Assembly: GCA_051294375.1 (NCBI GenBank)
Contig: CM119263.1
Location: forward strand, 5,206,740-5,270,739
Direction: 5' to 3'
Source of the DNA: Paraspadella gotoi
Lineage: Eukaryota > Animalia > Chaetognatha
DNA length: 64,000 nt
Shown: positions 1 through 62,826 of the stretch, piece after piece
Numbering within the stretch: the stretch's first letter is position 1
How the letters are laid out: each line of letters opens with the position of its first letter
Translations under genes and position numbers: made by a program
Notes under the pieces: generated by a model
Seen by the model: the letters and a program-made list of their open reading frames with translations, nothing else
Databases searched by the model: none
Told to the model about the DNA's origin: nothing

Positions 1-352
1 ACCCTACTACTTTCTCCGCTACAGGAGAAATCGTCTTTCCGCCGGCGCCAACTCGACCGGCGCTGGCTTCGGCGGCTGCAGCGGCGCTCCCGGCGCCCGG
101 CAGAACACCATCCACGGTCGCGGCTTCGGAGGTCTGCCGCGACAGGAGCTGCCGAAGAGCAAGGGTGAGACGTCGGGAGAGCAGCGGCCTCGGCGACGCA
201 GCATCGCGAAAGGAAAAAAATCGCGGAGAGAAAAATCTATGGGATCCGCGATTGAAGAGAAAAGGAGAAGAGTTTTGGCAGAAAGATCGTAAATGCAATG
301 AATGCATTGAAGAGTGTGAAGTCAACAGAGTTCTGAAAGCAAAGGCGGCCAT
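1..352 (-). CDS. 5' part of a mitochondrially targeted protein running off the window edge; possibly PDSS2 (decaprenyl diphosphate synthase subunit 2)
   Basis: Not in the ORF track because it is open at the edge. ATG at 352 gives MAAFAFRTLLTSHSS...RRLTLALRQLLSRQ...KTISPVAEKVVG, an Arg/Ser/Leu-rich presequence. The terminal AEKVVG resembles PDSS2 AEKIVGYP. A TTTTCAG acceptor lies 10 nt upstream of the ATG. Confidence 0.55.
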   Translation of the reverse strand, partial: MAAFAFRTLLTSHSSMHSLHLRSFCQNSSPFLFNRGSHRFFSPRFFSFRDAASPRPLLSRRLTLALRQLLSRQTSEAATVDGVLPGAGSAAAAAEASAGRVGAGGKTISPVAEKVVG

Positions 353-477
353 TTTCTCATCTCTGAAAATGTAAAATCGACTTAAAAATAGGACGGCGAA
401 TTGCGTGTACAAAAAAGGATGAAATAAAATTGGAACAAGGTATAACAAATATCCAAAACAATTTTTTAAAATATGGT

Positions 478-1590
478 TCACAAGGTTTCTTTGTCATTGG
501 AAAGTCTTTTGCTACGTCGACGATCGGAAATTTCTATTTTCGTCTCCCGTTTCTTGGATTTTCGCATCAGCCCTTTGGTTTTTACGTCCTTCTCTACTTT
601 CATAGTTTTTATTTCGTCGAGGTCAGTTTCAATTTTCTCCATTTTTACATTTCCTATATCGTCTTTTTCGCTTTTGATCTTTTTAACTTTATCCTTTTCC
701 ACTTTAAATTTCTTCTCATCTCCCTCCCCTTTTGCCATCTTTCTCCTCGTCTTCGCCCCCTCTCCTCCGTCCCCTTTGGGCGCCAAAGGCCCCGCATTTC
801 CCAGGAACCAAATGGTTCTCCCTTTTCGATCTTTCATCGATCTCATTCCGTCTCGTCCGTAGCATCGAAGCCAACGACCGAATCCCGAATCCCATTTCTC
901 CTTTGACTCTGAAAAGTATCCTCCTCCTTCGTCGATTCCGATCTCGATCACTTCCTCGGCCAATCCACGAATCAGGTCGAAAACGTCGCCGACGGCCGAC
1001 GCCGCTCCCAACGCCGTCCTGGCGCGCTCGAACGGCGCCGTTCCGAGCTGAAATAGCGCCTCGGCTCTGAGGTAATTGCCGACGCCGTTAAAGAATCTCT
1101 GATCGAGCAAGAGTTCGCAAATGGGCGAGTCAAAGGCCTTTTCTTCCAGTCGTTCGAGAACGCGATCCCGCGCCGCCGCCGTCTCCGTCACGACGCAGGG
1201 TCCCCGCGCCGGATCCCAATCGGCGCCGGGAAACCAGCGACCGAATCGACGGGGGTCGACGAAGCTCAGCGTCTGGAGTCCGTCCTTGGAAAAGAACCGA
1301 AGGTGAGAGTGTTTGGGCAGCGTGTCGGCGGAAGTAAGTTCGAACTTTCCAGACATTCCGAAATGAAAGAGAATGGAGAGGGTGTGGTCGGCATTGTCAA
1401 CGTCCGTCAACGTCATCTTCATCTCTTTTCCTCTCGACTCTGCGTCGATGCGATAATCAACGCAATTCCAAGTTACATCCGGGTTTTTGACGCTGACGTC
1501 GGATTTAACGACAGCTCCACCGAAGGAGACGCGGCGCCCGATCGATCGGACAAGTAATGCCGCCAAGCGGAGCTCAGGACCCTCCGGCAT
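478..1590 (-). CDS. NEIL1: Endonuclease VIII-like DNA glycosylase 1, intronless
   Basis: N-terminal MPEGPEL catalytic motif, FGMSG, H2TH region LLDQRFFNGVGNYLRAE, zincless finger (GRTIWF), Lys-rich tail. Confidence 0.95.
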   Translation of the reverse strand: MPEGPELRLAALLVRSIGRRVSFGGAVVKSDVSVKNPDVTWNCVDYRIDAESRGKEMKMTLTDVDNADHTLSILFHFGMSGKFELTSADTLPKHSHLRFFSKDGLQTLSFVDPRRFGRWFPGADWDPARGPCVVTETAAARDRVLERLEEKAFDSPICELLLDQRFFNGVGNYLRAEALFQLGTAPFERARTALGAASAVGDVFDLIRGLAEEVIEIGIDEGGGYFSESKEKWDSGFGRWLRCYGRDGMRSMKDRKGRTIWFLGNAGPLAPKGDGGEGAKTRRKMAKGEGDEKKFKVEKDKVKKIKSEKDDIGNVKMEKIETDLDEIKTMKVEKDVKTKGLMRKSKKRETKIEISDRRRSKRLSNDKETL

Positions 1591-2757: not shown

Positions 2758-5481
2758 TCACATGATTCCCGCGATGTCCCAGATTTTGATGATTCGATCT
2801 CTGCCGACGGAAACAAGTTTGCGTCGCGCCTCTTCAAGAAACAAGTGGGAGATGGAATGCTTGGCGTCGTGGAAAGAGGCGCGGGGTTGGAGATCGGGCG
2901 GCGTCAGCTCGGAGAAGCAGTCCTTACAGATCCGAACTCTGGGGTTTGATTTGATTAGGGGGGAGAGAAAAAAGAAAGATTTAAAATTGGGATGATCATT
3001 CTCGAATTCTAAATCTGAGGCCAAGATTGAAAAGGATGATTAAAATCTTCTGGAGGGACAGGAAAAAGGCACAGAATGAAAATCGTACAAGAATTGAAGA
3101 TATTTTATTTTGTGACATCATCTTTTATTGTGCAAAAACGGAAAAAACCGTTTCCAAAGCTTTAAGCAAACTCGATGAAAATAAAAAACCTGAGCTCGTA
3201 GCCCATGACAGGAAGCGGAGATCGATCGCTAGAGCAGCTGTCACATACGGCTCTACCGCATTTCCTGCAATGGTGCTGCCGCTTTCCCACTGTCTTATCC
3301 TCAAACATTTTTTTGACGGCCCAAAAGAATGGAGAGTTACAGCGCTGGCAAACGTCGCTTTCTGCCCACTGAGGTGTCTGGAAAAAGAGGTTAGATCGTG
3401 ACATTATGAAAAGAAGGCGATTTTTCTTCATACAAAGGAGGAGATAGAATACCTCTTGTCGTTTGGCCGCAATGTCCCAAAATCCCAAAACGCTGTCGTC
3501 CCCTGCGGAAATGATCGTTCTCGACGACGGGGAATATGCGAGCGCCAAAACTCTCCCACTGATGAAACAAAACGTTAATAATAACAAATAATTAAAACTA
3601 TAGCAGAATAAATTAACAATGACTCGCTTGTGGCCCTGCAGTTCGTAAGCGGTGCCCTTCTGACCCCCGATGTCCCACACAACGATGAGAGAGTCAACGC
3701 CGGCGCTGAAGAGCAACTTCCGCTCTGCATCCCACGAGAGGCGCTGGATGGCGTGGGCGTGACCACGGAGGGTTGTGACCACTTCCGGCTGGGAAGAGGG
3801 CGGAAAGAGAAAGTTTTTTTTTATTCACATAATTAGTTCATCCTTGTTCAATGTTCATCCTTGTATCTTTTTTTTATCATTGGCTTCCCTAAGGAACCAC
3901 GTAAGAATTGACGAGATGGTAGGACTTGAGAAACAGAATTAATTTGCTTTGGGTCGCCCAAGAAAAATACAAAAGATTGTGGCAACATGATTTAAAGCTG
4001 TCTCACTGCTGTCCGTCCAAAGCCTCGTCTCAATGGCTGAGTAGGCTAAATTATCTCGTTTCAACCGTGCGTCCCGGGTTCAATCCCTGGGTATCCCGGT
4101 TCTGTTTAAACATGCCAGTGATAGGAGGCGGTCACTGAGGGTCCGCAGGCTCTACGCAGGGTTGGCGAGATACCCCGCGCTCCGGGTATAACAGGAAATT
4201 CTCTCGTTGCCATAAGATATTATTTGTGGTCCCTCAATTTAGACACAGCAGCAGAACATGGCGAGATATCATTCCCACCTATATTTTAAACCACATAAAA
4301 GCGTTCGGTTATGAACTGTGGCGAATTCTATTGCCTTCCGTATAGCTTGGTGAAACTCAGCTCATCCCATTGGCTTGGACAGCTAAGTACTCGTTCACCA
4401 ATCGTGAGTTCCGGGTTCAATCCCCTCACGGTTACGCTGGTTAAAGTGTGATGGTGTCGGCATAAACATGGGGTGGTCACTGCAGGACCAAAACCCTGAG
4501 CGCCAGCTGTCGGGAGATGCCTCACACCCCGGGCATCACACATGTCTCCCCTTTGCCATAAAACGTTAGTTTCATCTTAAGCCGCAACCAAAGAATGTGA
4601 GAATGCCGACCTGATTCTGAACGATCTTGAGGACGGTGACGTGTCCGTTGAAGTCACCGAGAAAGGCGTACTTGGAAATCTCGTCAAAGGCGAGGGCGGT
4701 GATCCAGGCGGGCGATGGGTTGGAAAAAGAGCCCAAGGTTTGCCCCGTTTCGGAGCAGTGCCACTTGAATAACTTGTCGCGAGAACTGAAAGGAATCGAT
4801 TATTTCAATTACAATCAATCAATCAATGGTTCAACACAAATCACAAATTACTCACACGGACAAAACAATTTCGGCCGCGACTGAGACGGCGACGTCATTG
4901 ACTCTTTCCCTGTGGGCGAGGATGTCGCGAACCAAACTCATCGAATTGAAATCCGGCGCCAATTGGAACACAGAGACTGTCCCGTTCTGCTGGCCCACGA
5001 TCAGGCGTCGAGTGCCAGGCTCGAAGGTCAAACAGGTGGCGGCGGATGGGAGAAAGTGGCAGATGGAAGGCCAATGCTGACCAGAATCTCGCTTTTGCCA
5101 AACGCGGATCGACCTTTTTTTTCCAGATTTTGGGTAAAGAAGAGAAAACACGGATTCTTTACTTTTAGCATAAAAAGATAAAATAAATTTATCTTTTTCA
5201 AAATGTAACAAAATGAAAAAAATTATCCCTGCGATGAAGCAGAGTGAGTTTCTTTCAAACTTTCTTTCTTCCCCTTCCTTCCCCCATTCCTCCTTCATTT
5301 TCTCCTCTTCCGCTTCCCCCCACCTGTCCTCGCAGACAGAGATGACGCCGTCGTCGCGAAAGAGGACGGCGCCGTTTATCTCGTCCGGCGATCCCTCGAT
5401 CCGGCTGATGAGCACCGGCTTTCGCCCGCCGGAAAAGGCTCCCGAGAGCCCGGGATTTTTCTTAATCTCGGTCGTCGCCAT
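2758..5481 (-). CDS. WDFY2: WD repeat and FYVE domain protein (WDFY1/2 family), multi-exon
   Basis: Exons encode KPVLISRIEG, SIRVWQKRDSGQHWPSICH, WD repeats, FYVE motif WAESDVCQRC...RQHHCRKCGRAVC...VRICKDC and a final DRIIKIWD. GT-AG introns are traceable. Confidence 0.92.
3978..4214 (+). mobile_element. Solo LTR, family A (structured, tRNA-like A/B boxes), in a WDFY2 intron
   Basis: TGTGGC...GTTGCCATA termini with 4-bp TSD AGAT. A-box-like TGGCTGAGTAGG (4034) and B-box GGTTCAATCCC (4077). Homologous to 17177-17433. Confidence 0.8.
4317..4560 (+). mobile_element. Solo LTR, family B
   Basis: TGTGGCGAAT...TTGCCATA, flanks GAAC/AAAC, B-box GGGTTCAATCCC, 3' GAGATGCC..GGGCATCACA hairpin. Homologous to the copies at 11931 and 12162. 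Confidence 0.75.
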
Positions 5482-6384
5482 TTTTTATTGCAGAAGGAAA
5501 AAGGAGGGAGGTGGAAGGGGAAAAAGGCTGGCGAAGAGAGAGAGAAGGGGCCGCGTCGAATGTTACAGGATTCGCATCATGAACAATGAACAATTTGGTT
5601 TTGATCGTTACAAGTCATCGAAAATCAAGTGTGCATCTGAAAGTTAGCAATATGTTTGAAAAAAAGAATCATTTGATGGCCATATTATTTGCGTATAACA
5701 ATTAAATTATTTTTCATTGTTGTCGACAACGAGAGATCGGATTTTTAAGCACCATTTATACATTTACAACTTTCGGGTAACAAGAAATGAGAAAAAAAAC
5801 TGCAAAACTGCCGGTTGGCCTAGAAGGCTTGAAGATCCGCCGACCCTCGGACACCCTGTTGCCTTTGCCTATAGTTCCGATTCGGATAGAAGATTTGATT
5901 TCCGATGGAAAATATAAACGTAGGTATTTCTCCCCGCTTTTTTAGAGTCTTTGCAAATAAAATTTCAATCGTCTGTAATTAAAATCGATTGTTATAACTT
6001 ATACTGGGCTTACCATTCTTCGTATGATAGATAACACACCTTAACAAGACCAACATATGACTATGGTTCATTTGGCGCTAAGCAGAAAGCTTGGAGCGAG
6101 TATCATGATTTATGTTTTATTAGTGAAAAATAATGACGCATTTGATTGCAAATTAAAGGAAAAAAATGATTTAAACGAAAAAAAACAAACAAAACAAATG
6201 GCCATCTTGAAAACAAGGCGCCACTCCTGCTCGCTCCAAGCCGACCGCCAGAAAAAGTCCTGAGATGCGTAAAATGAATCACTGGATATAATAAAAAATT
6301 TCAACCTAAAACATTCACAGAGTCTGTGACATAAAATTAACTTCAACCGCACACTGAACCAAAAAACCGTTCGCTCCCCGATTG

Positions 6385-8019
6385 TTAAAAGTTCCGATGC
6401 AACATCTTCTTGGTCAAAGCAGCTAGGGCGCGGCGATGGTTTGAGTCTTTGAATCGCTCCAAATTTTTCATGGCCTCGTCGGAAAACTTGGCCGCCAAAA
6501 ACCGAGTCTGTTGGATTCCGTCGCTCGTCCGGACGCATTCGAGGGCGGAGGCGACGTCGCCGGGTTGAGAGAAACGCCGCACGATGAGCGGTTCCAGGTC
6601 GGGATGCCGGTCCAGGGCGAAGAGGACCGGCGCCGTGGCCAGTCCAAGGCGAAGGTCCGCGGTGGCCGGCTTCCCCAGCGTCGCGTCGGTTGAGACGAAG
6701 TCGAGGAGATCATCGATGAGTTGGAAGGCGATGCCGATGTTGCGACCAAACTGGAAGGGGAGGGAAGATGTGAATACTTAATCTACAAGGTGAAACCTTT
6801 CACTTTTCACTCACAAACTCTGATCAAATAATAATAATAATAAATGTAAAGTGTTTTGTAAACCATTTTCATTTACGTCCATTCTGATAGAAGGGTTGGT
6901 TTGTTTGAAATTGGTACAACCAATAAAACAAATAAGTTAATATGCCCCTGACAAGCTATGGTGGGTTAAAAGGCTCCATCCCATCACTTATTAACGAAGT
7001 GCACATTTAACGTTAGGTTAACGCTCACGCGTACAAAAGCCTACCCAAACAACGCAACAAGACTAAATAATGAACGAGTTCAATTTGACGTTAGGGAAAC
7101 CAAAGGAAACGAAAATAACTTTTTTTATTTTCTATATCCGTCGCCAAAACGCAAATCGTTATCACGCGTCGCTCGAACTAGTCCCGACCTGGAAACCCGC
7201 CTCGATCCTATCCTCGTCGCAATCGGAAAGAACGGCGACGGCCTTGCACGTGTTGGCCAGCAAAGACGCCGTCTTCTTGTAGGTCTTCTCCAAGTAGTGA
7301 TTAAAGCGGAGCGTCTCGTCCGTCTTGGTGCCCAGCTGCATGAACTCGCCGCCGACAAGGTCCTCGACGATCTGTGAGATGAGACGAACGACGAGAGTGT
7401 TACCTGTTCTGGAGAGGCAGCCAGAGGCGACGGAGAGGACGTAGTCGCCCGTGACGATGGCTTTGGTTTCTCCCCAGAGGTGATTGATGGTCGGGCTCCC
7501 GCGACGCAGATTGGCTCCGTCGATGACGTCGTCGTGGATGAGCGACGCCGTGTGGATCATCTCGGCGATGCGACACACGGCCAATTGTTTGTCGCCGATG
7601 AGCCGGACGACGTCGTCGTCTGTCAACGTCGGATCCGCTGTCTTATTACTGGCGACAGCGAGGAGGTAGACGATCTGCGGCCGAACGTACTTCCCCTTTC
7701 CGTCAAAGAGGTAATGAGAAAGTCTCTTCAAGTCGGCGATGTCGGTGTTTAGCTCTTCTTTGATGTCGTCACAGAGAGAAGCCAAGAAATCGCGACAGAG
7801 TTCCGACGGATTCTCCAGCGGCACCGGATCCTCGTCGACCAAGCGGGGCGCGCCCTCTTGGCAGGTACGGTTCGCCGGAGCGTCGCTCACGGCGTGAACG
7901 CGCCGCCGGAAAGTGGACCGAGCGGGAAAACCTGTCCGTTGGGCGGCCAAAAGGCTCGCACGATATATCGGGAGGGTAGAGGCGCATCTCTGGCAAGTTA
8001 ATTTTAATATTGGAAGCAT
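6385..8019 (-). CDS. PDSS1: Decaprenyl diphosphate synthase subunit 1, 2 exons (8019-7189, 6750-6385)
   Basis: GKGKYVRP, EMIHTASLIHDDVID (FARM), KTYKKTASL, GIAFQLIDDLLD (SARM), ADLRLGLATAPVLFA; N-terminal presequence. Confidence 0.93.
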
Positions 8020-8308
8020 TACTCAGAAGACTAATCTGTTGTTCCTATTACATGACCATATCGGATTGACTTCAAGCCTCTGAAGAATTTAGAAAATCAT
8101 AATTGTATTCGAGATTTGGATCAATAAAATTGTAAACAATTTCGTAGAAAATAAAACCCCGCAATGGGTAGAAGTGAGAAATATAAATTCTCTTGATGTT
8201 GGTGGTTCCCATTCAACCTCCCCCCCCCAAAAAAAAAAGTTTCCGCAAAATCATTGAAAAAAAAGTTTCCATCGTCGAATGTTGCACTTGAAAGACTAAG
8301 GCCTTGAG

Positions 8309-8776
8309 TCAGCCACACTTGGTGATCCCGATGACTCCGCAGGCGAGGCGTTCCCCGGAGTTGCCCGTGATCTTGCTCTTTTCTCCGCAGCCGAGGCCGA
8401 GGTCGTCTTCGTCGGCGTGGACGACGACGGTGCGACCGACAATGCTCCTCGGACCGCAGAGTGAGATCTCTTTGTCGGAGAAGTTGATCCTGGCGATGCC
8501 GTTGCAATCCGCCTCCACGTTTCCCAGATCGCCGACGTGGCGATCGCAGGCGTCCGGCCCGCCGTGGCACTTGTTCTCCGGGTTGAAGTGGGCGCCGGCG
8601 GTGGTGCACCCGTTGGTGTTGTCACCGAACTCGTGGATATGGAAGCCGTGAAGACCTTGTGTCAGGCCGGCGATCTCCCCGGTGATTTGGACCGGGCAGT
8701 TGGGCGTCTCCTGGGACATTCGGACGACGCCCCTGACGCAGTCGCCGGCCAAAACGCAGACGGCTTTTAGAACCAT
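8309..8776 (-). CDS. SOD1: Cu/Zn superoxide dismutase, Cys-rich paralog, intronless
   Basis: [51 protein letters not shown]; all Cu/Zn ligands and the catalytic Arg are present. Confidence 0.95.
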
Positions 8777-8976
8777 GTCGACGGTTTGGACTTAAAACTG
8801 ACGGCGATTGGTTGATAATTTTGTTTTTATTGATTAAAAAAGATGCCCTTGAAAAATCATAATCAGTAAAGTCAATTTTTAAAGGTCATAAGAAAGCCCG
8901 AAAACTTAATTTACCGATAAATTTGTAAACAAAAAAAAACCAACATATTCTTGATTCAGTTTTTTTCTCCGAAGCT

Positions 8977-9438
8977 TCACTTGCAGACTCCGATGACGCC
9001 GCACGCGATTCTGGCGCCAGCGTTTCCGGTGGTGAGACTAAGCTCGTGATCTCCTTTGCCTAGATCATCCGCGTTGGCGTGAACGACGACCGTGCGACCG
9101 ATGATGCTTTCGGGTCCAGAGAGAGTGATGCCTCCGTCTTTCTTAATGACGAATGCCACACCCTCATCGCCGGCGACGACGTTCCCGAGATCCCCGGCGT
9201 GGCGCTCCTCGTCTTCCGGCGCCCCGTGCTGCTTGTCGCGCGGATTAAAGTGGGCGCCGGCAGAGGTGCAGCCGTTGGTGTTGTCGCCGAATTCGTGGAC
9301 GTGAAATCCGTGACGACCCTTGACGAGTCCCTTGATCTCTCCGTCTAGTTTGACCTCCGACTCGGGCGCCTCTTGAATGAAGTGAATGGCACCCTGCACC
9401 TCCTCGCCAACCAAAACGCATACGGCTTTCAACGGCAT
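8977..9438 (-). CDS. SOD1: Cu/Zn superoxide dismutase, canonical paralog, intronless
   Basis: MPLKAVCVL start, [37 protein letters not shown]. Confidence 0.95.
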
Positions 9439-10024
9439 CTCGTAATACAATTCCACTTAAAAAATTGGACTGGTGTCTAAAAAAACAATTAAGGGGTAAA
9501 ATTTTACATTCACTATCGATAATTTTTTTCTGATTCTTATTTGCACAAAAAAAAGGTTTTTTGAATATTACAGCAATCACCCTTAAGCCTAACCGCCTCA
9601 AAAACCAACTACCCCTAATCACCCCTAACCACCACTAAGCTTAAATACCCCTCACCATAACCAAACCTTACTTTTTTCCTAGTATTAAACCACGGTAATG
9701 TGTAAATAGAAAAATAACCGACTGGCTTGGTTCCAGTCAGCGAAAGTAAAATAGTGCCAGTTAAGGTATACCGTATAAAGTTATAGAAGAGTAAAGAGTA
9801 TAAAAAACCACTTTAATACGAATCAAGAATTTTTTTCAACAAGAACAATATTTGCGAGAAACTTGACGAAAAGAAAAAAAGTTTTTTCTTGTTGAATATA
9901 ACGGAAATATATTTAACAACAAAGCCTATAGAGCATCACAGCGATTTCGTTTTCTTAAGACGTATTTGTTTATTTTTCGAAGATTATGTAGAAACGTACA
10001 AAGAAAATCCTAAAAAAATGATTT

Positions 10025-11048
10025 TCATTTGTTCGTGAATGTGATGAGATGAGCTTGGAGATCGAACCTCGTCAGCCCAGCATCCTTCCACTTATCCAGT
10101 CCGTCTCTCGTCTCCAACAGAGAAAGATCTAACTCGGGACCAAAGAGTTTAACGAGTTTGGCGTGAGTGAAGGCGTGGGGCGTCCGGTTCCATTCGTGTT
10201 CGTCGTAATCGTAAGACTCGAGGAGATAACGACAAGACGGAGACATGATCGACCGCATGAGAGCTACGTATCTGAGGCCGAGAGCGAAGATGGCGTTGAA
10301 TGCATAGTTTTTTCCGGATATTTATTAATTAAAACTGAATATTGAATCGTCTCACCGAACTCTGTCTTCCTTGTTGACGGCGACGAGCGAACCTCTGTCC
10401 CAAATCCCGTCTATCAACTCGTTTTCGAATTCATTTTGAAAACTGAACAGGTCACCCTGGTAGCATTTGAACCTATCATTTTCTCCAGAATAAAGCTTTA
10501 GATCGCCGCATTGCTTGATTTCGGTGATTGGAATGTTAGCTTCGGCAAATAGTTCGCGAACGGTCGGCTCGTGAAATTCGAGTCCCACGACTCGATGACC
10601 TGATCAATTGATTAACAATTAGCTGGTTTCATCATTAACTCCCTATTTTCATTTTAAAAAAAGGTCTCCCCGGCTTCCATACTTATAAATTAATCTTTCC
10701 CAGCATAAAACTACCTCTAATAATTAAAATGTAAATCATAATATGGGATAAAAAGCTCCAGGAAATGCTCTATTACCGAGGCCACTTTTAAATATTGTTT
10801 TGGCTATCGAACGGCGTTAATTTTTTAGTCATTAAACCTTGGTCGAGGATCCACTTCATGTCTTTAGTCTTTCCGCAAAGAGGAACGAAAACCTTGATGT
10901 CTTTTCGCCCATTTACGAAGAGGTCAAAATGAGTCATTAAAGTCGTGTTCACTTCTTGACGATGCCAGCCTGTCTCTCCCGTGTCCCATTGGTGACCCCA
11001 ATCGTCCAATGATTTGTCGACTAGTTTGACGCTAGATTCCGAATCCAT
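10025..11048 (-). CDS. TPMT: Thiopurine S-methyltransferase, multi-exon
   Basis: W..QW..GETGWH, KVFVPLCGKTKDMKW, IWDRGSLVAVN..DR, YLLESYDY...PHAF motifs spread over 3 exons. Confidence 0.9.
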
Positions 11049-11603
11049 TGCGAGAAATCTAAAAATACCCATAAATTATGCAAGAAAATAACGAGATTTG
11101 TCGATGAGAAAGAAACTCCGGAGGATCCTAGAGCCGGACATCAGATGTGAATTTAGCTGTTGAGTACCAAGTAACCATATTCTGGAATGAGGAGAAGGCC
11201 ACGAACTCGAACATTCTTTTTAATTCATCCTCACACATCTGGACGAATCTTCGTCTTCGATCCTTATGCCTGGCTTCATCTTGCAATAAATCAAAAGGGA
11301 GATCTATTGTGAGAGATTCTTATTTCATCTTTAATACACATTTTTAAAAGATTTTAAATACAAATTGAATTTAAATTAACACATTAACGACATAATTCAC
11401 GAACACTCACGACCTACAAAGTTCGGTGGGAACCAAAAAAAAATAGAAAAGCTAAATCACGAGAACTTCTAAAAAGAAAAAGTTCCGAGTAAAAGACGTC
11501 ATGGAATTAGATATGAATATTCTTTTTTCCTCGAATAAAATTCCCAGTTTAATATCATTAATTGATTAAAGCTTCAAAGGCCGACATTTTTTTTCTCTTC
11601 CGT

Positions 11604-28684: not shown

Positions 28685-28715
<31 letters not shown>

Positions 28716-40390: not shown

Positions 40391-40437
<47 letters not shown>

Positions 40438-44497: not shown

Positions 44498-44584
44498 TTT
44501 GTCGTCTAAAAAAAATTGATTAAAACGGACTCGACGAAAAGATTTTTTTTTTTTTTTTTTTTGGGGGGGGGGTTTCGAACATTA

Positions 44585-45226: not shown

Positions 45227-45329
45227 TATATAACAATAAAACGATATTCGTCACAATTTTAAAACGAATAAAGATTAAAAATAATAACAAATAACAGAGA
45301 TACGATTAACTCATATTATGTCAGCAGTT

Positions 45330-49034: not shown

Positions 49035-49273
49035 TTTTGTTTTACTAGTAAAGATTAAAGACTAATAAAGATTAAGCTTTCAAATAATTTCAAATAATTT
49101 GCTCCCGATTATTTTTTTTTAATGATTTTTAAGCATTCATTAACTACTTTATTGAGACATCAACAAAACGTTACAGTATTTGAATTTTGTTTAAATCTTA
49201 AAATATTTCAGAGAGAAAAATACAAGCATCATTAAAATAACCAGAAAATAAAAAAAATAGAATAAAAGGTTAT

Positions 49274-50188: not shown

Positions 50189-50370
50189 TTTTTATATTCT
50201 TTCACTCTTTTTCCTTCACTTTCCTTCGCCGATCGAAAGGGACCTGCCTTTTCACAGAACGCAAAGCGAGTAAAATAATAAATAAGTTGATGGCAAAAAA
50301 CGCAATCGATGCTACATCTAAGGCGAACGAATTGGGAGGGACTCGGGCTCTCTCTCGCTCTCCCTTTCAC

Positions 50371-51273: not shown

Positions 51274-51390
51274 TATTTGTTTCGTCTTAAATCTCGAATT
51301 CTGCGTAGAAAAAACAAGAAAAATATTCAAAATAAACACAAACTGATTCAAAATTAAAAAAAAAAAGTATGCGATGGGCTTTTTTAAATT

Positions 51391-52362
51391 TCATAAATTG
51401 TACTTTTTCTTCTTGTCAAAGACGGAATTGAATCCGGCCCTGGCGTTGTTCTTCAAATGGGCCTCGGCCGTCTTTTTGGCGATTCTAATCTTGGAGATGA
51501 GTTCTGGTTTCAGCGAAGGAAAGAGAGAAAGAAAATTCTTAAAATTGTGATGAAAGAAGATTTTGGCTTTGACTCCATCGTCAACGTGAGGGCAGACGTA
51601 GGCCAACTCTTTACCAAAGTCGTAAAGGATCGAGTTCATGAGTTTAAACTCGACAGATTCGCGTTGGAAGATGATGTTTGGGTCGCCCACCGTCTGCAGT
51701 ACCTCGATCTTTTTGAAGGGCAGGTTGAGGTTGCGCACGTTGAGCGAAAAGGCGTCGACGACTTCGGGCGAGACGGGCGGCCCGAAGTCCATATCGGTTC
51801 CGACGCCACCAGAGTAAACGGCCATCTGCCCGGAGCCGGGGTCGAGTTCCTCGTCGGGCGCGGGGAAGACGCTCTCCACGAAGCAAACGTCGTCTTCGTC
51901 GTCTTGGCTGCGAAAGTCTTCGTCAAGAGAAGCGCGAGTTCGTTTGGCGGCGACGGCCGCTTCCTGCCGCTTCGATTTACGCTTCAGCGCAGAGGGCGGC
52001 GGCTTTAGATCCTCGGCAGCCGCCTCAGCCGCAGCTTCCTCCTCCTCGTCGCCAAATTCGCAAGAGAGATCGAGCGGCGCGTAGGTGGCCGTCTCATCGA
52101 CGCCGGAAAAGTCGAGACCTTCGCTCGGCTTCAAGTGGACGAGCTGATCCGAGTCGGCGCCGCGGAGATTCCCGTGGGCGTAGTCTTCGACGAGACGTCG
52201 GGATCCGCATAGTTTCCGTCCTTCTTTGTTCTCGAGGATAATGAGGAGTTTGGAATCGATGAGGGTAGAGAGGCGGGTAGCGAATTCAAACACCACATTG
52301 CTGATGGTCGATTCGAAGTCGTTGAGGTGCGTCATCAGTTGAAGGAGATTGTGAGAAGACAT
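51391..52362 (-). CDS. Orphan family paralog 3, intronless
   Basis: Tandem paralog of 50371-51273; acidic linker with NLS-like KRKSKR. Confidence 0.8.
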   Translation of the reverse strand: MSSHNLLQLMTHLNDFESTISNVVFEFATRLSTLIDSKLLIILENKEGRKLCGSRRLVEDYAHGNLRGADSDQLVHLKPSEGLDFSGVDETATYAPLDLSCEFGDEEEEAAAEAAAEDLKPPPSALKRKSKRQEAAVAAKRTRASLDEDFRSQDDEDDVCFVESVFPAPDEELDPGSGQMAVYSGGVGTDMDFGPPVSPEVVDAFSLNVRNLNLPFKKIEVLQTVGDPNIIFQRESVEFKLMNSILYDFGKELAYVCPHVDDGVKAKIFFHHNFKNFLSLFPSLKPELISKIRIAKKTAEAHLKNNARAGFNSVFDKKKKYNL

Positions 52363-52477
52363 CCTCGACAAGATAGTGATGTAAAATACAAAATATTTCA
52401 GATCATATAAGTTAAAACGCTTTTACGCGATGCCTTCACGATTCCTTCCCCCTGGAAATATTTAAAAGAAACTGTTT

Positions 52478-53640
<1,163 letters not shown>

Positions 53641-53710
53641 AACTTTTTAGTTTCTGAAGGTCATCACCTTATGTTTTCAGACTGTAAAATTTGAAAAAAA
53701 AAATAGTTAA

Positions 53711-54880: not shown

Positions 54881-55192
54881 TATATAATATCACTGAAGGA
54901 CATCAATTTTAAAAAATTACATAGTATCTTAAAACCTAATAAAAAATCTGTACTAGTTTAATTAGGCATCCACAAGTCGCCAGGAAAGTGATGATCTAAC
55001 GACTGGACAGACAGTCAAAACCCGGAATGTTTAATCAAACGCGTTGGATTCTTTCTATTAAGAATTCTTAAAAGCACCAATAAAACTTAAAAGGCTCTAG
55101 ATCCAAATGTAATTTCCCACACGAAATTGGAGTTAATAAGTTAAAACTCGTGGCTCGTCCAAGACCCACACACAAATCGACGAGATCTCCTA

Positions 55193-58100
55193 TCACGTGC
55201 AGGAGCAGTCGACCAAGTTGACGGAGGAGAGGAGGTCATGTTCCAAACTCCCCAAAGGATGGAGGCGAATCTTCATCTCTTCGAAATCCTTCTGAATGTC
55301 CTCCACTTTGGTCGGATGACAGACGACGGCGGTTCGAGTCTGCGCGGGATCGAAGAGCGGACTCAGGAGTCGCTTGCCGACCGCGAGGACGTCCTCCACC
55401 GTCACTTCCGAAATTAGGCTCAAGAGTCGTTTGCTGCGGGAAGAAAATATACAGGAATAAAATTTTTTTTCCTATTAATTATACTATTGTACTATTCTAA
55501 TATTTTAGAATGTAATCATGATCATTTAGTTATTCCTTAAATAACCCCGATGGACGTGAAAGTTTTCTAAGCAACATCGCCATACTTGTAAGTATGCGGA
55601 ACTCCTCTAAAATATGTGAGAATTGATTCTTCTGCTGCGTCGGACACAGTCTTTTCTTCTTCGATGACTTCGAAGACGAGAGATGATTTCGCCGCCTCGA
55701 ATTCCGTCTCGTCCACCTCTTCATCGCCTGAAGGAAAATATTATTAAATAGATAAAAAGTTGTTTAATTTATCAAATAAGCACAATTAATATCCCTAACC
55801 AGAAAGAAGGGATTCGGTGATGAGTTTAGCTTCTTTATAAGCGTTGGCCAGATGAGTGGACTTGTGCAGGTTGAAGTAAAGCAAACCCTGTTCCACGTTT
55901 ACCGAGATGGAATAATGATAGGCGAGACCCTGGCCACGGATTTGCCGCCACATGGGGCCTTCCAACTGAACCAGAGATTTGGGGAAAAGTCTTCGATTTT
56001 TGTATTTTTTCCTCTCGCAGATGTTGGACATTTACTTCTAACAAATTAGATTTTAGCTCTTTCTTTCTATGCATTTAGACAAACCTGAGTAAGGTACTGA
56101 ATGATAACCATAAGAGGCGCCAGGTCCGGGTGATCGTGCGTCACTAACGAGGCAGTCGAAGTCGCCGAGTAGGAGGATTCAACGGAACCAACTCCCATGA
56201 TGGCGTTGTTGATGCGGGCCGGTTCGTTTTGAGCCTGAGAATAATCATTAAATAAATAAATGAATCAATTAATTATTAATTAATTAATCAAATCGGTGCC
56301 GCGAACGACTCGCCTCTGCATTGAACGGCTTCAATCGCTTGGAAGTGGGTACGACCGTCGCGCGTTCGAATCCGACGCTCGACGTTGGCCAGTCTTTGGC
56401 GAAGTGTTTTGTGAGAGGAAGATCCTCGGTGGGAAGGACTTTTGCCAGGCGTTGGACGTCACCTGATAAACATCAAGGAAAAAGAGATAAGAACCAAAAA
56501 TCCATGCGAGCGAAATAATGACACAATCAAGCAGGCAAAAAAATCTAACCGGCAAAATGCACAATGACGTCATTACTAAAGACGTCGGCCAAACGTTTAA
56601 GATCGTTCAAGACGCTTCCGCTTTTTTCCGATTCGATCTTTTCCAAAACTTCTTTAAGGAAGACGTGTTGACGCATGAAGGAGGTAAACCAGTGGTTGCT
56701 TTTTTGTGTGAAGGTCAAATTTCTCGTGATAGCGCGAAGAACTGCGGTGCCTGGAATCGTCAGAATTAGTTTACGTTTATATAACTATATACAGCTTTTT
56801 TTCGATCATATCATTTACGTCAGTTATCTATTTTCATGGCTGTTCTGGCTGTGATGTTTGAGCTGTTTAACTTACAGTCTTACAACCTTCAAAACCTATT
56901 TAAATTCCACAATCCAAATAAACCTTTGCGTTTGGCCGTTGGAACTTCGTTGATCAATTTAGTAGCGACGGTTTTAACTCTTTCTTCGTTGAAATGAAGA
57001 TGAAATAAAAGATCCTTTAGCCAATTAACGCCGACGACGAATTTGGCCTCTTCCACCTTCAAGGAGACGATCGCCAGATCCGGGAACTCCCCAGGGGCGA
57101 AGTCGTATCCGCTGAAGCCCAACGATCCACCGTAGTGTACCTGGGAGTGAATGGAAAATTGATTCTCACGGTCGTTGCAAAATAATCTTTGGATAAATTA
57201 AATCTCCTAAACTCATTTACATATTTGCAGTATTGAAACTTCAACCGCCCCATTTTTGTTAATTCACCTCTCATATAGTAACTAAAAAAGTTTCAGGATC
57301 CTCAATCCTCACTCCTCACCGTGTCCCTCGACAAATCCGCGATGACCGTCGTGTGAGGAATCACAGTTTTTTCCTCCGTCGCGACTCAAATTAGTTTCGA
57401 AGACAAGGTTGAGAAAAAGAGGAAGGTAGAATTTCAGACGAGGCTCAATGTCTGTAGGGTATAACATTTTTAAAATTCAATATATATATATATATATATA
57501 CTGGCATACTAAATATTATTCAACTCAAACCTTTCGTGTCGACGATGGCGGAAAAACTGACGAACTTAGATTTGATGGAATCGAGTTGGAAGGCGAATGG
57601 AATTTCCTCGAGGCGAAACTCGACCAGAGTGTCGAGAGCGTCGGTCGCGGCATCGCCGTGTCGAGGCCCGAAGTTGCGGCGCTGCTGCAGAGAATGAAAT
57701 TGGATAGAGTCGACGGAAGGGATGGGGACTGACTCCAGCATCTCCGTCGGAGGCTCCTCTTCGTTTTGCTCCACCGCTTCTTCCAACTCTTCCTTCTTGA
57801 GCGCCAGGCCGTCTTCGCCTGGAAATCATGGGAAGAATCTATCAATGCTCCATCAAAAAAACAGCAATATGCAAACGAGATTAGATGAATCAAAACTCAA
57901 AAGAAAAGACGACCTAAATCCCAAAAAACGACAAGGACCGACCGACCTAGTTTCTTTCTCTGCCTCTCCACGCGCGCCTTCTCCTCGGCCCCCATCTTCT
58001 CCATTAATTTCTTGCTGGGTTTCCCCAAAATCGTGACGGAACTTCGTGACAGCAAAAAGTCTCTAAGGAGCTTTTGCCAAAAGGAAGCGGGTTCGGTTTC

Positions 58101-61043
58101 CATCTGTCGCATCATGGCGACGTCGTTCAAGCGTCGCTCCAACTCGGAACTATCGTTTCCGTAGAGGAAGAATCCGATGATGATGCCTCAAGAAAGAAAC
58201 AAAAGTTGAAGTTTAATTATTCATTATTTAGTATGAAATAAAAATGCGACGACACCTGCGACGTGTTCGTGGGGATCGTCCTCGAAGGCGTTGAGGACGC
58301 GGGTAATCTTGCGATGAACTTGATTCCTCATTCGAAGGAGATCGAATTCGGGTTTGTTTGCGTCGGCGACGTCGCTCAAGATCTTCGTCAGTTTCGGTCG
58401 AATTTCTTCCTCCTTTTCCGTCGGGACGTTGCTGGAGGCCGAAGGAAAAGGGTTTTGGGTTTTCACGCCTACTTTTCAACTAAATGACATTTTGATTAAA
58501 ACGTCTAGTTTTCTATATTGCATTTTGATTGACATACAGGGGATTCAGATTCAGATTGCCAGGACCTACATCCTTAGATGGCATTTTGATTACCCCGCCT
58601 ACTTTCTAAATGGCATTTAAAATATCCAAAGCCATAGCCTTTAAATTTTAAATTAAATAAATAGCGTTATCAAAATGGCGTCCGGAAAAGTAGGCAAAAA
58701 TATCAATGAAATTTTTTATATATGGATATATTGTGGCGGTATATTCACACCGCCTCACGTCCACCATCCTTCAGCCAAAATCCATTGGCTCAGAGGGGAA
58801 CACACCATCCCAAGCGTAGTGTTCCATCCACAGTCCTAACGACTTCCCTCTGTGTTGGCAAAGCGAGACCGTCCTAGGGTAACCGCGCCAGTGACTGGAG
58901 GCGTCACTGAGGGTCGGAAGCCCCCAAAGCCAACAGTGAGATGCCCCATCCCAATGGGCATCACAGGCAACCCGGCTGTTGCCATAAGTGGTGAGCCCTA
59001 CTCTCGAACACGCAACCTTCTCAGGGTACGCTACGACAAACGCCTATGCCCTGCGACTTTGGGTACGCTACGACAAACGCCTATGCCCCTGGGTACGCTA
59101 CGACAAATGCCTATGCCCCACAACTCGCGCTCTCTCTCTCTCTCCCACTATGGTAACAGTCTTGTCAGACACCTCTCAGGCTTGAAGAACCTGAGTGATG
59201 TCTTGGCCGGGGATCCTGTGGCGGTATATTCACACCGCCTCACGTCCACCATCCTTCAGCCAAAATCCATTGGCTCAGAGGGGGAACACACCATCCCAAG
59301 CGTAGTGTTCCATCCACAGTCCTAACGACTTCCCTCTGTGTTGGCAAAGCGAGACCGTCCTAGGGTAACCGCGCCAGTGACTGGAGGCGTCACTGAGGGT
59401 CGGAAGCCCCAAAGCCAACAGTGAGATGCCCCATCCAATGGGCATCACAGGCAACCCGGCTGTTGCCATAAGATAGCTTTAAATAACAGTATACTTAGCT
59501 ATATATCTAAGTATAGCTAAGTATTTAAGGACCCATTAGCTCCCTAACAATAGCATTTATTTCACTCTTCCGTTCACCTAAAATGAAGATAAACGACGCC
59601 TTCGCTGCTTTCGATGATGGAATAAGAAACGTGATTCGCCAGGGGAGGATGTTTCTCCACGAATTCCTGACCAAAACATTTATTCGCTTCAATTATAATT
59701 TTTTTAAAAAAATAAATAAAATTATATGATACCCTTTGCAATGGCGAGACGGCGGTGTCGGTCAAATACTCCAACAGAATATCAATGGCCGTCATTTCGT
59801 AGAGTTGAGTAGATTTAGGTCCTCTCCACGCCACGGTCACCTTCCAAGGCAAAAAGGGAAAGTTTATGTCCAACAAGTGGAATATGCAACAATAAATCAT
59901 AGACTCTCCTACTTGGACCTTTCCCATTTCCCCCTTCCCTACCATCCCGTGGTCCTCGTCGTCGGCGCCATAGTTGACGACCTTCTCGACGGGATCGATG
60001 AGCGGCGGAACCGGCGAGGTCCAGGGCCGCTCGAAAGGCGGCAACTTCCCCTTCGCCACCACTTTGTCTTCGAAGGGCGCGATAGCGGCGAAGACATCGG
60101 CCGGAGAGACTCGGCCGACAATGATGATGCAGAGGTTGTCGGGTCTGCGAGAGAGAAGATAAAGAAAGAGAGATAAGAAACAAGCCGATTGAACGTTTCG
60201 TAAATTCCAACACCAAAAACACGCAGCAACTGAAAGAAAAAACGAACGCGATAAATACCTGTAATAAGTTTTGTGATAATCCTTCACTTTCTGATGCGAC
60301 GTGCTCTCCCTGAGGTTTTTCAGGATCCCTCCCGTCTCGCTTTTGTAGCCGCAGCGGCCCGGGTACATCTCCCGCAGCATCTCGAGGTGAGTTCGTGACT
60401 CACCCGTGTTTTCGCGCGCTTGCATCTCGCAGTACACCACGCCGGCATCTTCGCCCTCTCCGTTGATGTGGTGCACCTAGAGGAGGATGATTGATTGAAT
60501 AATTAATTAATTATTTATTTCATCTTGACAAAAATCATTTGCACCTCCGTAACATAGGAGGAAGGAATGAGAGTCGGATAAAGAACGTGATCCAAATAAA
60601 TGGGAAGCAAATTCAAAAATCCTTCGCTTCCCGCGGTCGTCATCGTGTAGGAGGTGTTGTCGGTATCCGTCCAAGCGTTGGTTCCAGATGCCAGGCATCT
60701 GTTGGCCAGGAGATCCAGGACGCCTAAGAAATGAAATCAAAAGTGAGTGAAGACTTCTCTACGCATTTCCGAGAAAAGGCTTTTCATTTCCGAGAAAAGG
60801 GATCCATGAAAAGCGACCTTTGTAGGGATAATCCTCGCTGCCCATGAAGACCAAATGCTCGAGCGTGTGAGGGAGACCGTCATCATCGTGCGCCTCGGTC
60901 GAGAGACACAAATAACCGTTGACGATTGGACCGGGGACTTCGGCGACGACGACGCTAATTCGAGTCTTTGAAGATTTGTATTTTGAGACTTTGATGTGAT
61001 CGTCCAGAAGGAACTCGAAGTCTTGAACGAAATTCGACGGCAT
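55193..61043 (-). CDS. M16 (insulinase-like) zinc metallopeptidase of the C. elegans C05D11.1 type, many exons
   Basis: TEAHDDDGLPHTLEHLVFMGSEDYPYKG (HxxEH), GTNAWT, HHINGEGEDAGVVYCEMQ, YKSETGG, EGPMWRQIRGQGLAY. One apparent 1-nt frameshift at 57367-57372. Confidence 0.88.
58732..59470 (+). mobile_element. Complete TRIM-like miniature LTR retrotransposon (family C)
   Basis: Two near-identical ~255-bp direct LTRs (58732-58986, 59217-59470), PBS-like TGGTGAGCCC 2 nt after the 5' LTR, short G-rich tract before the 3' LTR, 230-bp non-coding interior, flanks ATAT/AGAT. Confidence 0.85.
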
Positions 61044-62191
61044 CGTCTGTCTCCGTCTCACACTCGTAGCATAGAAAGTTTTTTAAGAGACTACTCAGAC
61101 TAGCGAGGAGAAACAAAATCTAACCAATGAGGAAAAAGTTAATAATCACGGAGACGGAAAAAAGATTTCATTGGATATTTACAAATTAGGAGAAGGAATA
61201 TTATTACAATGTTCCCTCGAATGATATTAAAATGTGAACGTAAAACTCTATCCTTATAATATTGCGTTAAAAGAATCCAATGAAGATTTGACCAAACACC
61301 TGAAAAGCATACGAAAGGTGAATGACTGGTAGACAGTAAAGGTGATCGGTTCTAAGAGTAAAATAGGCTTATTAAAGTGCAATGTCTCACGTAATTTTAT
61401 AGCGATTACATATTGATTATTTGAAACACAAACGCTTTAAAAAGATTAAATGGAAATCAGCCTTTTTCCCGGCTACGGAGAAAAATCTTCGAAAATACAT
61501 AATTGTGAGTTAAGTGACCTTTAGTAAATTTTAATAGTTTACGCTAAATATTATTAAAAAGCACGATACGTGTTTTTTTAAATTGGTTTTCGGTTAGGAG
61601 ACCATGGTAAGAGAGCAAGGGTTTTGAAAGAATAAAAGACGATAATAAACTGGATATTTAACTAGGTATGCCAATTTGACAGATCACAATTTTTACCAAA
61701 AAATATTTTCAAAAAATGTAAAAAGGTAATGAATTTTTTTGTTTTAGTAGTAATCTTCACCATGTAAAACATAAATAATTCCGACTTGAAATAAATATTA
61801 TTAATAATATTTCACGATGAGTTTTAAAAGTACATCTAAACATATGATCTAACTGGCCTTCGCGTAAACCGATGTTAAATATAAGCTATAAATATTTGAC
61901 TCTTTACATTAGCCTAAAAAACTGGTTGACAGCGTTTGCAAAGTTAACGCAGAAAAAAAAACAATCCAGTTTTTTGAAAAAAAAGTTTTGAAGAAAATGA
62001 CACTGCACCCAATATCACAGCCTGCATTATCCACTGAAATGGGACAGAAAATGTTCGTTGTTTATATTTAATGTCCAAATAGTTTCTCACTCCTAGCCCT
62101 AAATGGTTCTAAAAATTCTAGATCTAAAAATTCGCAGTCAATGATACCCAACACTTAAAACATTCAACAGGAGAAATGAAAAGCGTGAGAA

Positions 62192-62826
62192 CTACAACTG
62201 AACTGTGCCATAATAATCGTCCTCGTCCTTGGCCTCTTGCAAGTACCAACTCTGCATCTTTGACGGCATCTTGGTAAGGATGAGGCTGCCGTCTGGATTC
62301 TTGAGTTCATCGTTGGCCGGCATGTGGCCCGTGTCCCCGAGTTCCCTGACGAAGACGAGGCCGTCGGGGCGGATGGAGAGCCACGTGATGCTTCCGTTGT
62401 GGAGACTCATACGCAGCCAGGCCTCGGGTGGCAGTTGCAGGGCGCGGCAGACGAAGTAGCGGATCACGTTGGCGTGGGTCACAACAACTTCGTACGAGTC
62501 GCTCTTCTGAATGGGGACGAAATGAAGGCGGTTAAAACGTCGGTTAAGAAAGAGAAACATTGAAACAAAATTTTCTCTTACCTGATTTAAATCGGCCCGA
62601 TGAAGGTATTTCCTGTAGGCGGCTTCAATTCTAGCGCCGTCCTCGTAAAACGACGACGACGACGACGACGACGAGTTGGCGCCGATGCTGAACTTTTGAT
62701 TAGAGACGAAGGACTCGGGAGCGCACTCGAGCAGCAGGTCGTCCTCGAGGGTCTCCATGTCGGGTAGATGTCCGCGGAGAATCGAGACGGACTGCTTGCA
62801 CCGCAAGGCACTAGAGTGGATGATCC
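62192..62826 (-). CDS. PGAM5: PGAM5 mitochondrial Ser/Thr phosphatase, last two exons; 5' exons not located in the window
   Basis: YEDGARIEAAYRKYLHRA, DSYEVVVTHANVIRYFVCRALQLPPEAWLRMSLHNGSIT, LGDTGHMP. Confidence 0.88.

What the first reader, a model, noticed from the sequence alone, without database searches (positions are those of the whole stretch)
1..62826. 22 consecutive genes on one strand: candidate very long animal operon / polycistronic array
Seen: every reconstructed gene is on the minus strand (2^-21, about 5e-7, if orientations were independent; somewhat weaker after discounting tandem paralogs). Stop-to-start gaps are tiny: NEIL1 to next ORF 125 bp, SOD1 to SOD1 200, SOD1 to PDSS1 289, ATG5 to paralog 3 115, paralog 3 to paralog 2 117, paralog 2 to TANGO2 182, TANGO2 to CPT2 239. 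These leave little room for a 3'UTR plus a promoter. Known: SL trans-spliced operons occur in nematodes, tunicates and flatworms, usually with 2-8 genes and enriched for housekeeping and mitochondrial genes. Inference: this is one or a few polycistronic units, and a run of 22 or more co-oriented genes would be unusually long.
Basis: partly seen in the sequence, partly recalled or inferred. Interest (0 to 1): 0.85.

Follow-up and report, generated by a model that had tools for sequence, protein, structure and literature searches.

The report
22-gene one-way arrow-worm operon chain
Twenty-two mostly housekeeping genes (one only probable) lie head to tail on one DNA strand in what is likely an arrow-worm genome; spliced RNA assemblies run through eight of the gaps and one gene's RNA starts with an arrow-worm-type spliced leader, so the stretch is likely a chain of a few long operons, a known mechanism, in a one-way run longer than the nine-gene operons published for this group.

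Summary
All 22 genes are on the minus strand (18 with Pfam support, three RNA-covered paralogs, one only probable), and no plus-strand ORF reached a Pfam cut-off (0 of 380). The seven quoted gaps are exact but are the shortest: the median of all 21 is 586 bp (maximum 1,589). In one spliced RNA run, the WDFY contig starts with 27 non-genomic bases joined exactly at an AG acceptor. They share the last 9-10 bases with published chaetognath spliced leaders. Two contigs run without a mismatch through 8 of the 14 gaps tested (two five-gene blocks). So this is likely a chaetognath cluster of SL-resolved operons, a known mechanism (published maximum nine genes). One 22-gene transcript is not shown: contigs are not molecules, no leader was seen on a gene inside a bridged block, and 7 gaps were untested. 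A 2008 Spadella BAC table lists 14 of 14 named host genes on one strand over 120 kb, so long one-way runs may be phylum-wide; my searches found no paper describing this. The scan noted 9- and 14-gene co-oriented clusters elsewhere in this genome. Verdict: new member of a known kind, with a testable bolder reading.

The parts
1..352 (-). 5' part of a probable gene (117 open codons, runs off the window; looks by eye like a mitochondrial presequence, COX15-like label is recalled and untested)
   Evidence: ORF; acceptor-like AG 10 nt before the ATG; no Pfam hit
478..1590 (-). NEIL1 glycosylase, single coding exon
   Evidence: Pfam Neil1-DNA_bind, Fapy_DNA_glyco; ORF
2758..5481 (-). WD40 + FYVE protein (WDFY1/2-like, recalled label)
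   Evidence: Pfam; spliced contig
5636..5638 (-). Trans-splice site: 27 non-genomic nt ending CTTGTTTAAA joined to position 5636, directly after a genomic TTTCAG acceptor, 155 nt upstream of the WDFY ATG
   Evidence: loose end in one contig; junction; absent from the window at up to 3 mismatches; 3' match to published chaetognath SLs
5945..11870 (-). RNA-bridged block: peroxiredoxin 3' part, TPMT, SOD1a, SOD1b, PDSS1 in one 5,539-nt spliced contig, 0 mismatches
   Evidence: tables 5 and 8
6385..8019 (-). Polyprenyl synthetase (PDSS1-like)
   Evidence: Pfam; intron joined in RNA
8309..8776 (-). Cu/Zn SOD b, single coding exon
   Evidence: Pfam Sod_Cu
8977..9438 (-). Cu/Zn SOD a, single coding exon
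   Evidence: Pfam; homologs
10025..11048 (-). Thiopurine S-methyltransferase
   Evidence: Pfam; RNA joints
11604..13113 (-). Peroxiredoxin, 7 coding exons
   Evidence: Pfam; model
14108..18089 (-). ADP-ribosylglycohydrolase-like gene (start predicted)
   Evidence: weak Pfam hits; model
19482..23779 (-). Cyclin (E-like, recalled label; start predicted)
   Evidence: Pfam Cyclin_N on two exons
24582..27139 (-). ACAD9/ACADVL-type acyl-CoA dehydrogenase
   Evidence: Pfam; model
28729..33076 (-). RS-rich zinc-finger protein (C2H2, CCCH, knuckle); first exon at 32755-33076 is predicted and could be a separate gene
   Evidence: Pfam; model
33627..42580 (-). OPA1 dynamin-like GTPase, with a 5.4-kb repeat-filled intron
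   Evidence: Pfam OPA1_C, Dynamin_N
43184..44497 (-). Orphan paralog 1, three coding exons; RNA contig starts at the AG 10 nt before the ATG
45330..46316 (-). SP-RING (zf-Nse) protein, single coding exon; RNA contig starts at 46346, the first base after a TTTTTACAG acceptor
   Evidence: Pfam
46839..49034 (-). CPT2, single coding exon
   Evidence: Pfam; homologs
48888..52813 (-). RNA-bridged block: ATG5 last exon, paralog 3, paralog 2, TANGO2 and the first 147 nt of CPT2 coding sequence in one 4,448-nt contig, 0 mismatches
   Evidence: table 8
49274..50188 (-). TANGO2, single coding exon
   Evidence: Pfam
50371..51273 (-). Orphan paralog 2, single coding exon
51391..52362 (-). Orphan paralog 3, single coding exon
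52478..53640 (-). ATG5, four coding exons
   Evidence: Pfam; model
55193..61043 (-). M16-family peptidase-like gene, many exons
   Evidence: weak Pfam; 13 RNA joints shown
62192..62825 (-). 3' part of a histidine-phosphatase gene (PGAM5-like, recalled label); its RNA contig carries about 4.0 kb from beyond the window
   Evidence: Pfam His_Phos_1

Best explanation
The window is a one-strand run of 22 genes in what is likely a chaetognath (arrow worm), and it is likely transcribed as a few long polycistronic units of roughly 5-10 genes that spliced-leader trans-splicing cuts into single mRNAs. Shown: co-orientation, short spacers, spliced RNA running through 8 spacers, and a chaetognath-type leader joined at an AG acceptor on one gene. 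Inferred: RNA polymerase II starts at a few upstream promoters and reads on past each gene's 3' end; each upstream message is polyadenylated and each downstream message gets its capped 5' end from an SL RNA at the unpaired acceptor before its ATG. Also inferred: because downstream genes need no promoter, genes that land in the same orientation stay expressed while inversions lose expression, so one-way runs grow. The likeliest internal promoters are the widest spacers (cyclin to ADPRH-like 1,392 bp; zinc finger to ACADVL 1,589 bp; PGAM5-like to M16 1,148 bp, although RNA covers nearly all of this last one).
For: (1) Leader: the WDFY contig begins with 27 nt not in the window, joined right after a genomic TTTCAG, sharing 10 3' bases with SL3 and 9 with SL2 and SL4 of PMC2481426 Table 3. 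(2) Read-through: a 5,539-nt contig covers PRDX-TPMT-SOD1a-SOD1b-PDSS1 and a 4,448-nt contig covers ATG5-paralog 3-paralog 2-TANGO2-CPT2 5', both with 0 mismatches, while introns are joined across; 8 of 14 tested spacers lie in a single contig. The PGAM5-like contig runs to 52 nt before the M16 ATG. (3) Three listed contig 5' ends fall 0, 0 and 2 nt from an acceptor AG (WDFY, SP-RING gene, paralog 1); 2.1% of spacer positions lie that close to such an AG. (4) Acceptor score in the 100 nt before 21 ATGs: mean 5.64 against 3.13 in shuffles, 1 of 1,000 shuffles as high; higher than the antisense strand, Wilcoxon p 0.013. (5) A 1-kb repeat-subtracted rule, like the one used for Macrostomum (PMC8629364, passages), gives blocks of 1, 10, 2 and 9 genes. 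(6) Chaetognath operons are published, enriched in metabolic housekeeping genes, with no operon-specific leader (PMC12460157, section 10).
Against: A de Bruijn contig across genes is not one molecule; abutting 3' UTRs plus a little read-through give the same picture. All RNA evidence is from one run of one study, kept as contigs without strand, start or level. The only leader seen is on WDFY, outside both bridged blocks; none was seen on a gene inside them (one search showed 6 of 222 loose ends, and the six shown lay in or next to repeats). The leader is not identical to any form in the 2008 table, and I could not see the P. gotoi leader sequences. Protein searches do not place the phylum: CPT2 is about 50% identical to vertebrate proteins and SOD about 70% to arthropod and mollusc proteins. 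The acceptor enrichment is modest and a 5' UTR intron would also give it. 14 of 21 stop-to-start gaps exceed 500 bp, which leaves room for promoters.
Confidence: 0.57

Rival explanations
1. The whole run (22 or more genes, over 63 kb) is one polycistronic transcription unit from a single promoter beyond the window, like a small kinetoplastid directional gene cluster.
For: No strand switch in 63 kb and no spacer above 1.6 kb; under the 3,500-nt start/stop rule used for Pristionchus (PMC4138322, passages) all 22 form one candidate operon. The PGAM5-like contig brings about 4.0 kb from upstream of the window, more than the missing part of that gene should need (inference). In the Spadella BAC table 14 of 14 named host genes are on one strand over 120 kb.
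Against: The published animal maxima that I read are 7-9 genes (PMC12460157; PMC8629364; PMC7986045). The longest single contig shown covers five genes. Several spacers of 1.1-1.6 kb could hold promoters, and transposons of 0.6-0.7 kb sit in two spacers. 7 of 21 spacers were not tested on RNA.
Confidence: 0.2
2. Mostly small operons (2-5 genes) and singly transcribed, SL-capped genes, each with its own short promoter, that share orientation through tandem duplication, chance and compaction; the bridging contigs reflect leaky termination.
For: Median gap 586 bp. With a 250-bp stop-to-start rule the largest unit is five genes and 13 genes stand alone. In P. gotoi about half of all genes are trans-spliced but only 18% are in operons. 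If the window held five independent units, co-orientation would have a chance of 1 in 16 (arithmetic).
Against: The 250-bp rule, applied stop-to-start, splits spacers of 555 and 586 bp that RNA covers end to end. With 16 independent units co-orientation would have a chance of about 3e-5 (arithmetic). Only the SOD pair and the three paralogs are tandem duplicates. The Spadella BAC shows the same one-way layout.
Confidence: 0.2
3. No trans-splicing: a compact genome with a promoter per gene, the 27-nt piece being a distant cis-spliced exon or an assembly chimera.
For: The leader is seen in one contig only; its source locus was not found (no genome held; no exact match in metagenome contigs; no Rfam hit in the window).
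Against: It ends in the same 9-10 bases as published chaetognath leaders exactly at an AG acceptor; a cis exon would have to lie over 58 kb upstream, beyond 19 other genes. Spacers of 115-117 bp leave almost no room for a 3' UTR plus a promoter.
Confidence: 0.03

Closest known systems
Chaetognath SL-resolved operons: Paraspadella gotoi (PMC12460157; abstract, passages, section 10 and three PDF supplements searched) and Spadella cephaloptera RPS14-PCNA (PMC2481426; passages, section 12, supplement 2)
   Same: Leader with the same 3' end; head-to-tail housekeeping and metabolic genes; short spacers; likely the same phylum.
   Different: Published operons were called with a 250-bp rule and reach nine genes; here 22 genes run on one strand over 63 kb, with RNA covering spacers of 555-586 bp stop-to-start. 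The 27-nt leader piece is not identical to any form in the 2008 table.
Operons of C. elegans (2-8 genes), Macrostomum lignano (up to nine; both from PMC8629364 passages), Ciona (up to seven; PMC7986045 passages) and Oikopleura (PMC11067885 passages)
   Same: Polycistronic transcription resolved by SL trans-splicing; functionally loose mix of housekeeping genes; repeats can widen spacers (Macrostomum).
   Different: Other phyla and other leaders; shorter units; nematodes use an operon-specific SL2, which chaetognaths lack.
Kinetoplastid directional gene clusters (search listing and abstracts only; cluster sizes recalled)
   Same: Long one-strand runs of unrelated genes matured by SL addition.
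   Different: Those clusters hold tens to hundreds of almost intron-free genes and cover nearly the whole genome (recalled); here genes keep cis introns, only about half of P. gotoi genes are trans-spliced, and a single promoter is not shown.

Membership tests
SL-resolved animal operon (chaetognath type) | Adjacent genes in the same orientation | tested here: met
   21 of 21 joints shown are minus-strand GT-AG
SL-resolved animal operon (chaetognath type) | Short intercistronic distance (under 250 bp between transcripts in PMC12460157) | tested here: inconclusive
   6 of 21 stop-to-start gaps are at most 250 bp; UTR ends are not mapped, and RNA fully covers 8 spacers up to 586 bp
SL-resolved animal operon (chaetognath type) | Organism uses a non-genomic spliced leader joined at an AG acceptor | tested here: met
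   one contig, WDFY, position 5636
SL-resolved animal operon (chaetognath type) | Leader on downstream genes of the operon | tested here: inconclusive
   none seen inside the bridged blocks; acceptor-like sites are enriched before ATGs; 216 of 222 loose ends were not shown
SL-resolved animal operon (chaetognath type) | Polycistronic precursor across spacers | tested here: inconclusive
   8 of 14 tested spacers lie in single spliced contigs, but contigs are not single molecules
SL-resolved animal operon (chaetognath type) | One promoter, none before downstream genes | not testable with these tools
   needs CAGE, ATAC or H3K4me3 data
Kinetoplastid-like directional gene cluster | Tens of genes transcribed from one initiation region | not testable with these tools
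   22 co-oriented genes seen; initiation sites unknown
Kinetoplastid-like directional gene cluster | Genome-wide organisation into long one-strand blocks | not testable with these tools
   no genome held; hints only from the Spadella BAC table and two unchecked scan notes
Chaetognatha (phylum assignment) | Leader 3' end like chaetognath SL forms | tested here: met
   10 nt shared with SL3, 9 with SL2 and SL4, 5 with SL1
Chaetognatha (phylum assignment) | Protein phylogeny groups with chaetognaths | tested here: inconclusive
   no named chaetognath protein among the 120 listed hits of either search

The most novel reading that the evidence does not exclude
Arrow worms transcribe their housekeeping genes in trypanosome-like directional clusters: this run of 22 or more intron-containing genes over more than 63 kb is a single promoter-driven polycistronic unit, more than twice the longest animal operon I found in print, and such clusters are the rule in the phylum, hidden so far by a 250-bp operon-calling threshold.
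Probability: 0.2. Interest if true: 0.8.

Novelty: new member of a known kind. Interest (0 to 1): 0.47.

Why it matters
Operons in arrow worms are known, so the mechanism is not new. What may be new is scale. If housekeeping genes sit in one-way runs of 20 or more genes under one or a few promoters, distance-threshold calls underestimate operon size in this phylum, and an animal comes closer to kinetoplastid-style expression, where output is set after transcription. The locus is a ready test case for how polymerase II reads through many poly(A) sites without an operon-specific leader, and for whether promoterless, intron-free gene copies join operons (8 of the 22 genes have a single coding exon). 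The strand run-length question can be settled from an existing annotation file.

Tried and rejected
No whole genome was held, so no genome-wide strand run-lengths and no search for the SL RNA gene. Parts without shown cover, not used as evidence either way: 5637-5944 between the PDSS1 contig end and the WDFY leader site; about 35 nt between the CPT2 and SP-RING contigs, and the M16-ATG5, SP-RING-paralog 1 and paralog 1-OPA1 spacers, where repeats intervene or rows were cut (8 pieces shown, 2,193 hidden). Seven spacers were never laid (OPA1 to PRDX, five; WDFY-NEIL1; NEIL1-last ORF). By length arithmetic the ATG5 and PRDX contigs hold 10 and 16 nt upstream of their acceptor; these letters were not shown and may be leader or genomic, so they are not counted. 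The break between the PGAM5-like and M16 contigs falls near an AG, but its geometry does not clearly fit a leader branch; rejected as leader evidence. A plus-strand gene threaded through the cluster was sought and not found; exons under 30 codons or of unknown families would be missed. The leader was not in metagenome contigs. Rfam gave 0 hits. A relative's locus for synteny was not found: one search gave two short CPT2 contigs (41-45%), and the closest protein P0002 (58%) has no readable DNA. My splice-aware script put false exons into repeats in six genes, so I used only its starts and stops, plus RNA-confirmed or hand-checked exons. AATAAA is not a consistent marker of spacers (absent from 9 of 21). 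The paralog family gave no hit in Pfam, the protein database, PDB sequences or the Atlas. The P. gotoi gene and operon table (xlsx) was too large to read and the PDFs hold no leader sequence; that table could already list this cluster or longer runs.
Full report
1. Observation. The window (44.6% GC) is gene-dense animal DNA; about 46% is minus-strand coding sequence by my exon mask. Pfam on 149 minus-strand ORFs and on single exons supports 18 genes. Three further genes form an orphan family (35% identity between two; all three in RNA contigs). Names finer than the Pfam family (WDFY, PDSS1, cyclin E, PGAM5, COX15) are my recalled labels; CPT2 and SOD1 were confirmed by homolog searches. On the plus strand 380 ORFs gave two hits, both under the curated cut-off. 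All 21 splice joints shown are GT-AG on the minus strand. Gaps next to genes with predicted starts (cyclin, zinc finger, ADPRH-like, OPA1) depend on those predictions.

2. RNA evidence. One public run, X1, holds 94% of the sampled words and proved to be spliced RNA. In 4600-11890 two contigs were laid. One, 5,539 nt, runs from peroxiredoxin through TPMT, both SODs and PDSS1 to position 5945, with four introns joined across and all four spacers present without a mismatch. The other, WDFY, begins with 27 bases that are not in the window and that join position 5636, the first base after a genomic TTTCAG. In 42401-62400 a 4,448-nt contig runs from the last ATG5 exon through paralogs 3 and 2 and TANGO2 into CPT2, stopping at an 83-nt tandem duplication in CPT2. 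The SP-RING gene's contig starts at the first base after TTTTTACAG and paralog 1's at the AG before its ATG. The PGAM5-like contig reaches to 52 nt before the M16 ATG and carries about 4.0 kb from beyond the window, which suggests the run continues (inference). These are contigs from one run of one study and do not prove single molecules.

3. The leader and the organism. An earlier scan note (e1-10588039) suggested an arrow worm, so I read the chaetognath papers. The published leaders are 36 nt and end in TTAAA (PMC2481426, section 12). The 27-nt piece shares its last 10 bases with form SL3 and 9 with SL2 and SL4; a 10-base match exactly at the junction has a chance near 1e-6 per form (arithmetic). 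It is identical to none of them, which fits the species-level variation that paper reports. Protein searches give an animal without close named relatives and do not place the phylum, so the assignment rests on the leader and on unchecked notes.

4. Acceptors before start codons. With a matrix trained on the 21 RNA-confirmed introns, the best AG in the 100 nt before 21 ATGs scores 5.64 on average against 3.13 for shuffles (1 of 1,000 as high) and exceeds the antisense strand (p 0.013) and the 100 nt after stops (p 0.011). This is modest support for unpaired trans-splice sites; true cis acceptors average 9.8 on the matrix they trained.

5. How many units? It depends on the rule. Stop-to-start at most 250 bp: largest unit five genes. 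At most 1 kb: 1, 1, 9, 2, 7, 2. At most 1 kb after subtracting the repeats found within the window: 1, 10, 2, 9. At most 3.5 kb: all 22. The RNA shows that 250 bp stop-to-start is too strict, since spacers of 555 and 586 bp are fully covered. I therefore favour a few units of about 5-10 genes (0.57) over one unit (0.2), many small units (0.2) or no trans-splicing (0.03). Promoter positions cannot be tested with these tools.

6. Comparison with print. P. gotoi: about half of genes trans-spliced, 18% in operons, operons called as genes under 250 bp apart, longest nine genes, no operon-specific leader (PMC12460157; passages, section 10). Macrostomum up to nine and C. elegans two to eight (PMC8629364, passages); Ciona up to seven (PMC7986045, passages); the passages seen of PMC7668243, PMC2776167, PMC11067885, PMC4138322 and PMC7346339 gave no larger figure. 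The 2008 Spadella BAC table has 24 rows: 14 named host genes, all plus, from base 99 to 119,826; four minus rows, all labelled transposon; five further plus rows (a tyrosine recombinase and transposon-labelled or unlabelled rows); one row without orientation; predictions without a SwissProt match are not listed. Its text already remarks on closely clustered, same-orientation genes. Eight searches found no paper that measures strand run-lengths or describes directional clusters in chaetognaths; the library lacks most subscription papers, and the P. gotoi gene table could not be read.

7. Verdict. The feature is real and works like a chaetognath SL-resolved operon cluster; membership is met for orientation and for SL use in the organism, and open for leaders on downstream genes, for the precursor and for promoters. 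It is a new member of a known kind. The open and testable point is size: the one-way run is more than twice the longest published operon, and a second chaetognath shows the same layout. Interest 0.47; 0.8 if one promoter drives the whole run (probability 0.2).

Noticed in passing
window 43184-44497, 50371-51273, 51391-52362 (-): Three-member orphan protein family with a shared N-terminal 70 aa and a shared C-terminal domain; no hit in Pfam, the protein database, PDB sequences or the Atlas. By eye the N-terminus resembles a MADS/SRF dimerisation segment (recalled; lead from e1-10588121), untested by structure.
   Followed up: partly
window 478-1590, 8309-9438, 45330-52362: Eight of the 22 genes have a single coding exon (NEIL1, both SODs, SP-RING gene, CPT2, TANGO2, paralogs 2 and 3), five of them consecutive; their counterparts in other animals usually have introns (recalled). 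Could be promoterless retrocopies that joined the operon.
   Followed up: no
window 36419-38792: 2.4-kb GC-rich element in the OPA1 intron, bounded by 119-nt inverted arms, with an internal stretch near 37830-37900 that resembles the arms; DIRS-like layout by eye, no Pfam hit in its ORFs.
   Followed up: partly
window 16654-16888, 23010-23244, 58731-58965, 59217-59451: 235-nt repeat in four copies, all in introns; the last two lie 486 bp apart like the LTRs of a miniature retroelement, and RNA depth there is very high. Possibly the family noted in e1-10599781; Rfam found nothing.
   Followed up: no
window 44583-45228, 54038-54760, 16259-17176: MITE-like elements with about 157-nt inverted arms; two sit in intergenic spacers, and removing the first leaves a 185-bp spacer.
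   Followed up: partly
window 5482-5636 (-): The WDFY leader joins directly onto an ATG that opens a 3-codon upstream ORF, and a stronger-scoring acceptor 46 nt before the main ATG is not used in this contig.
   Followed up: no
window 8309-13113: Antioxidant genes cluster (two Cu/Zn SODs and a peroxiredoxin in one RNA-bridged block); SOD1b is unusually cysteine-rich. Several other genes in the run are mitochondrial (CPT2, ACADVL, OPA1, PDSS1, PGAM5-like; recalled).
   Followed up: no
window 41255-42580 (-): OPA1 has a long acidic coiled-coil N-terminal extension before the GTPase domain.
   Followed up: no
window 61666-61764 (+): 33-aa plus-strand ORF with a sub-threshold match to the P4-ATPase N-terminus (E 1.2e-4); no other P4-ATPase domain found, likely chance in AT-rich DNA.
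   Followed up: partly
P0002 cluster: The closest CPT2 relatives (58%) lie on unnamed contigs of 2.9-9.3 kb, long for a single CPT2 mRNA; their DNA could not be read.
   Followed up: no
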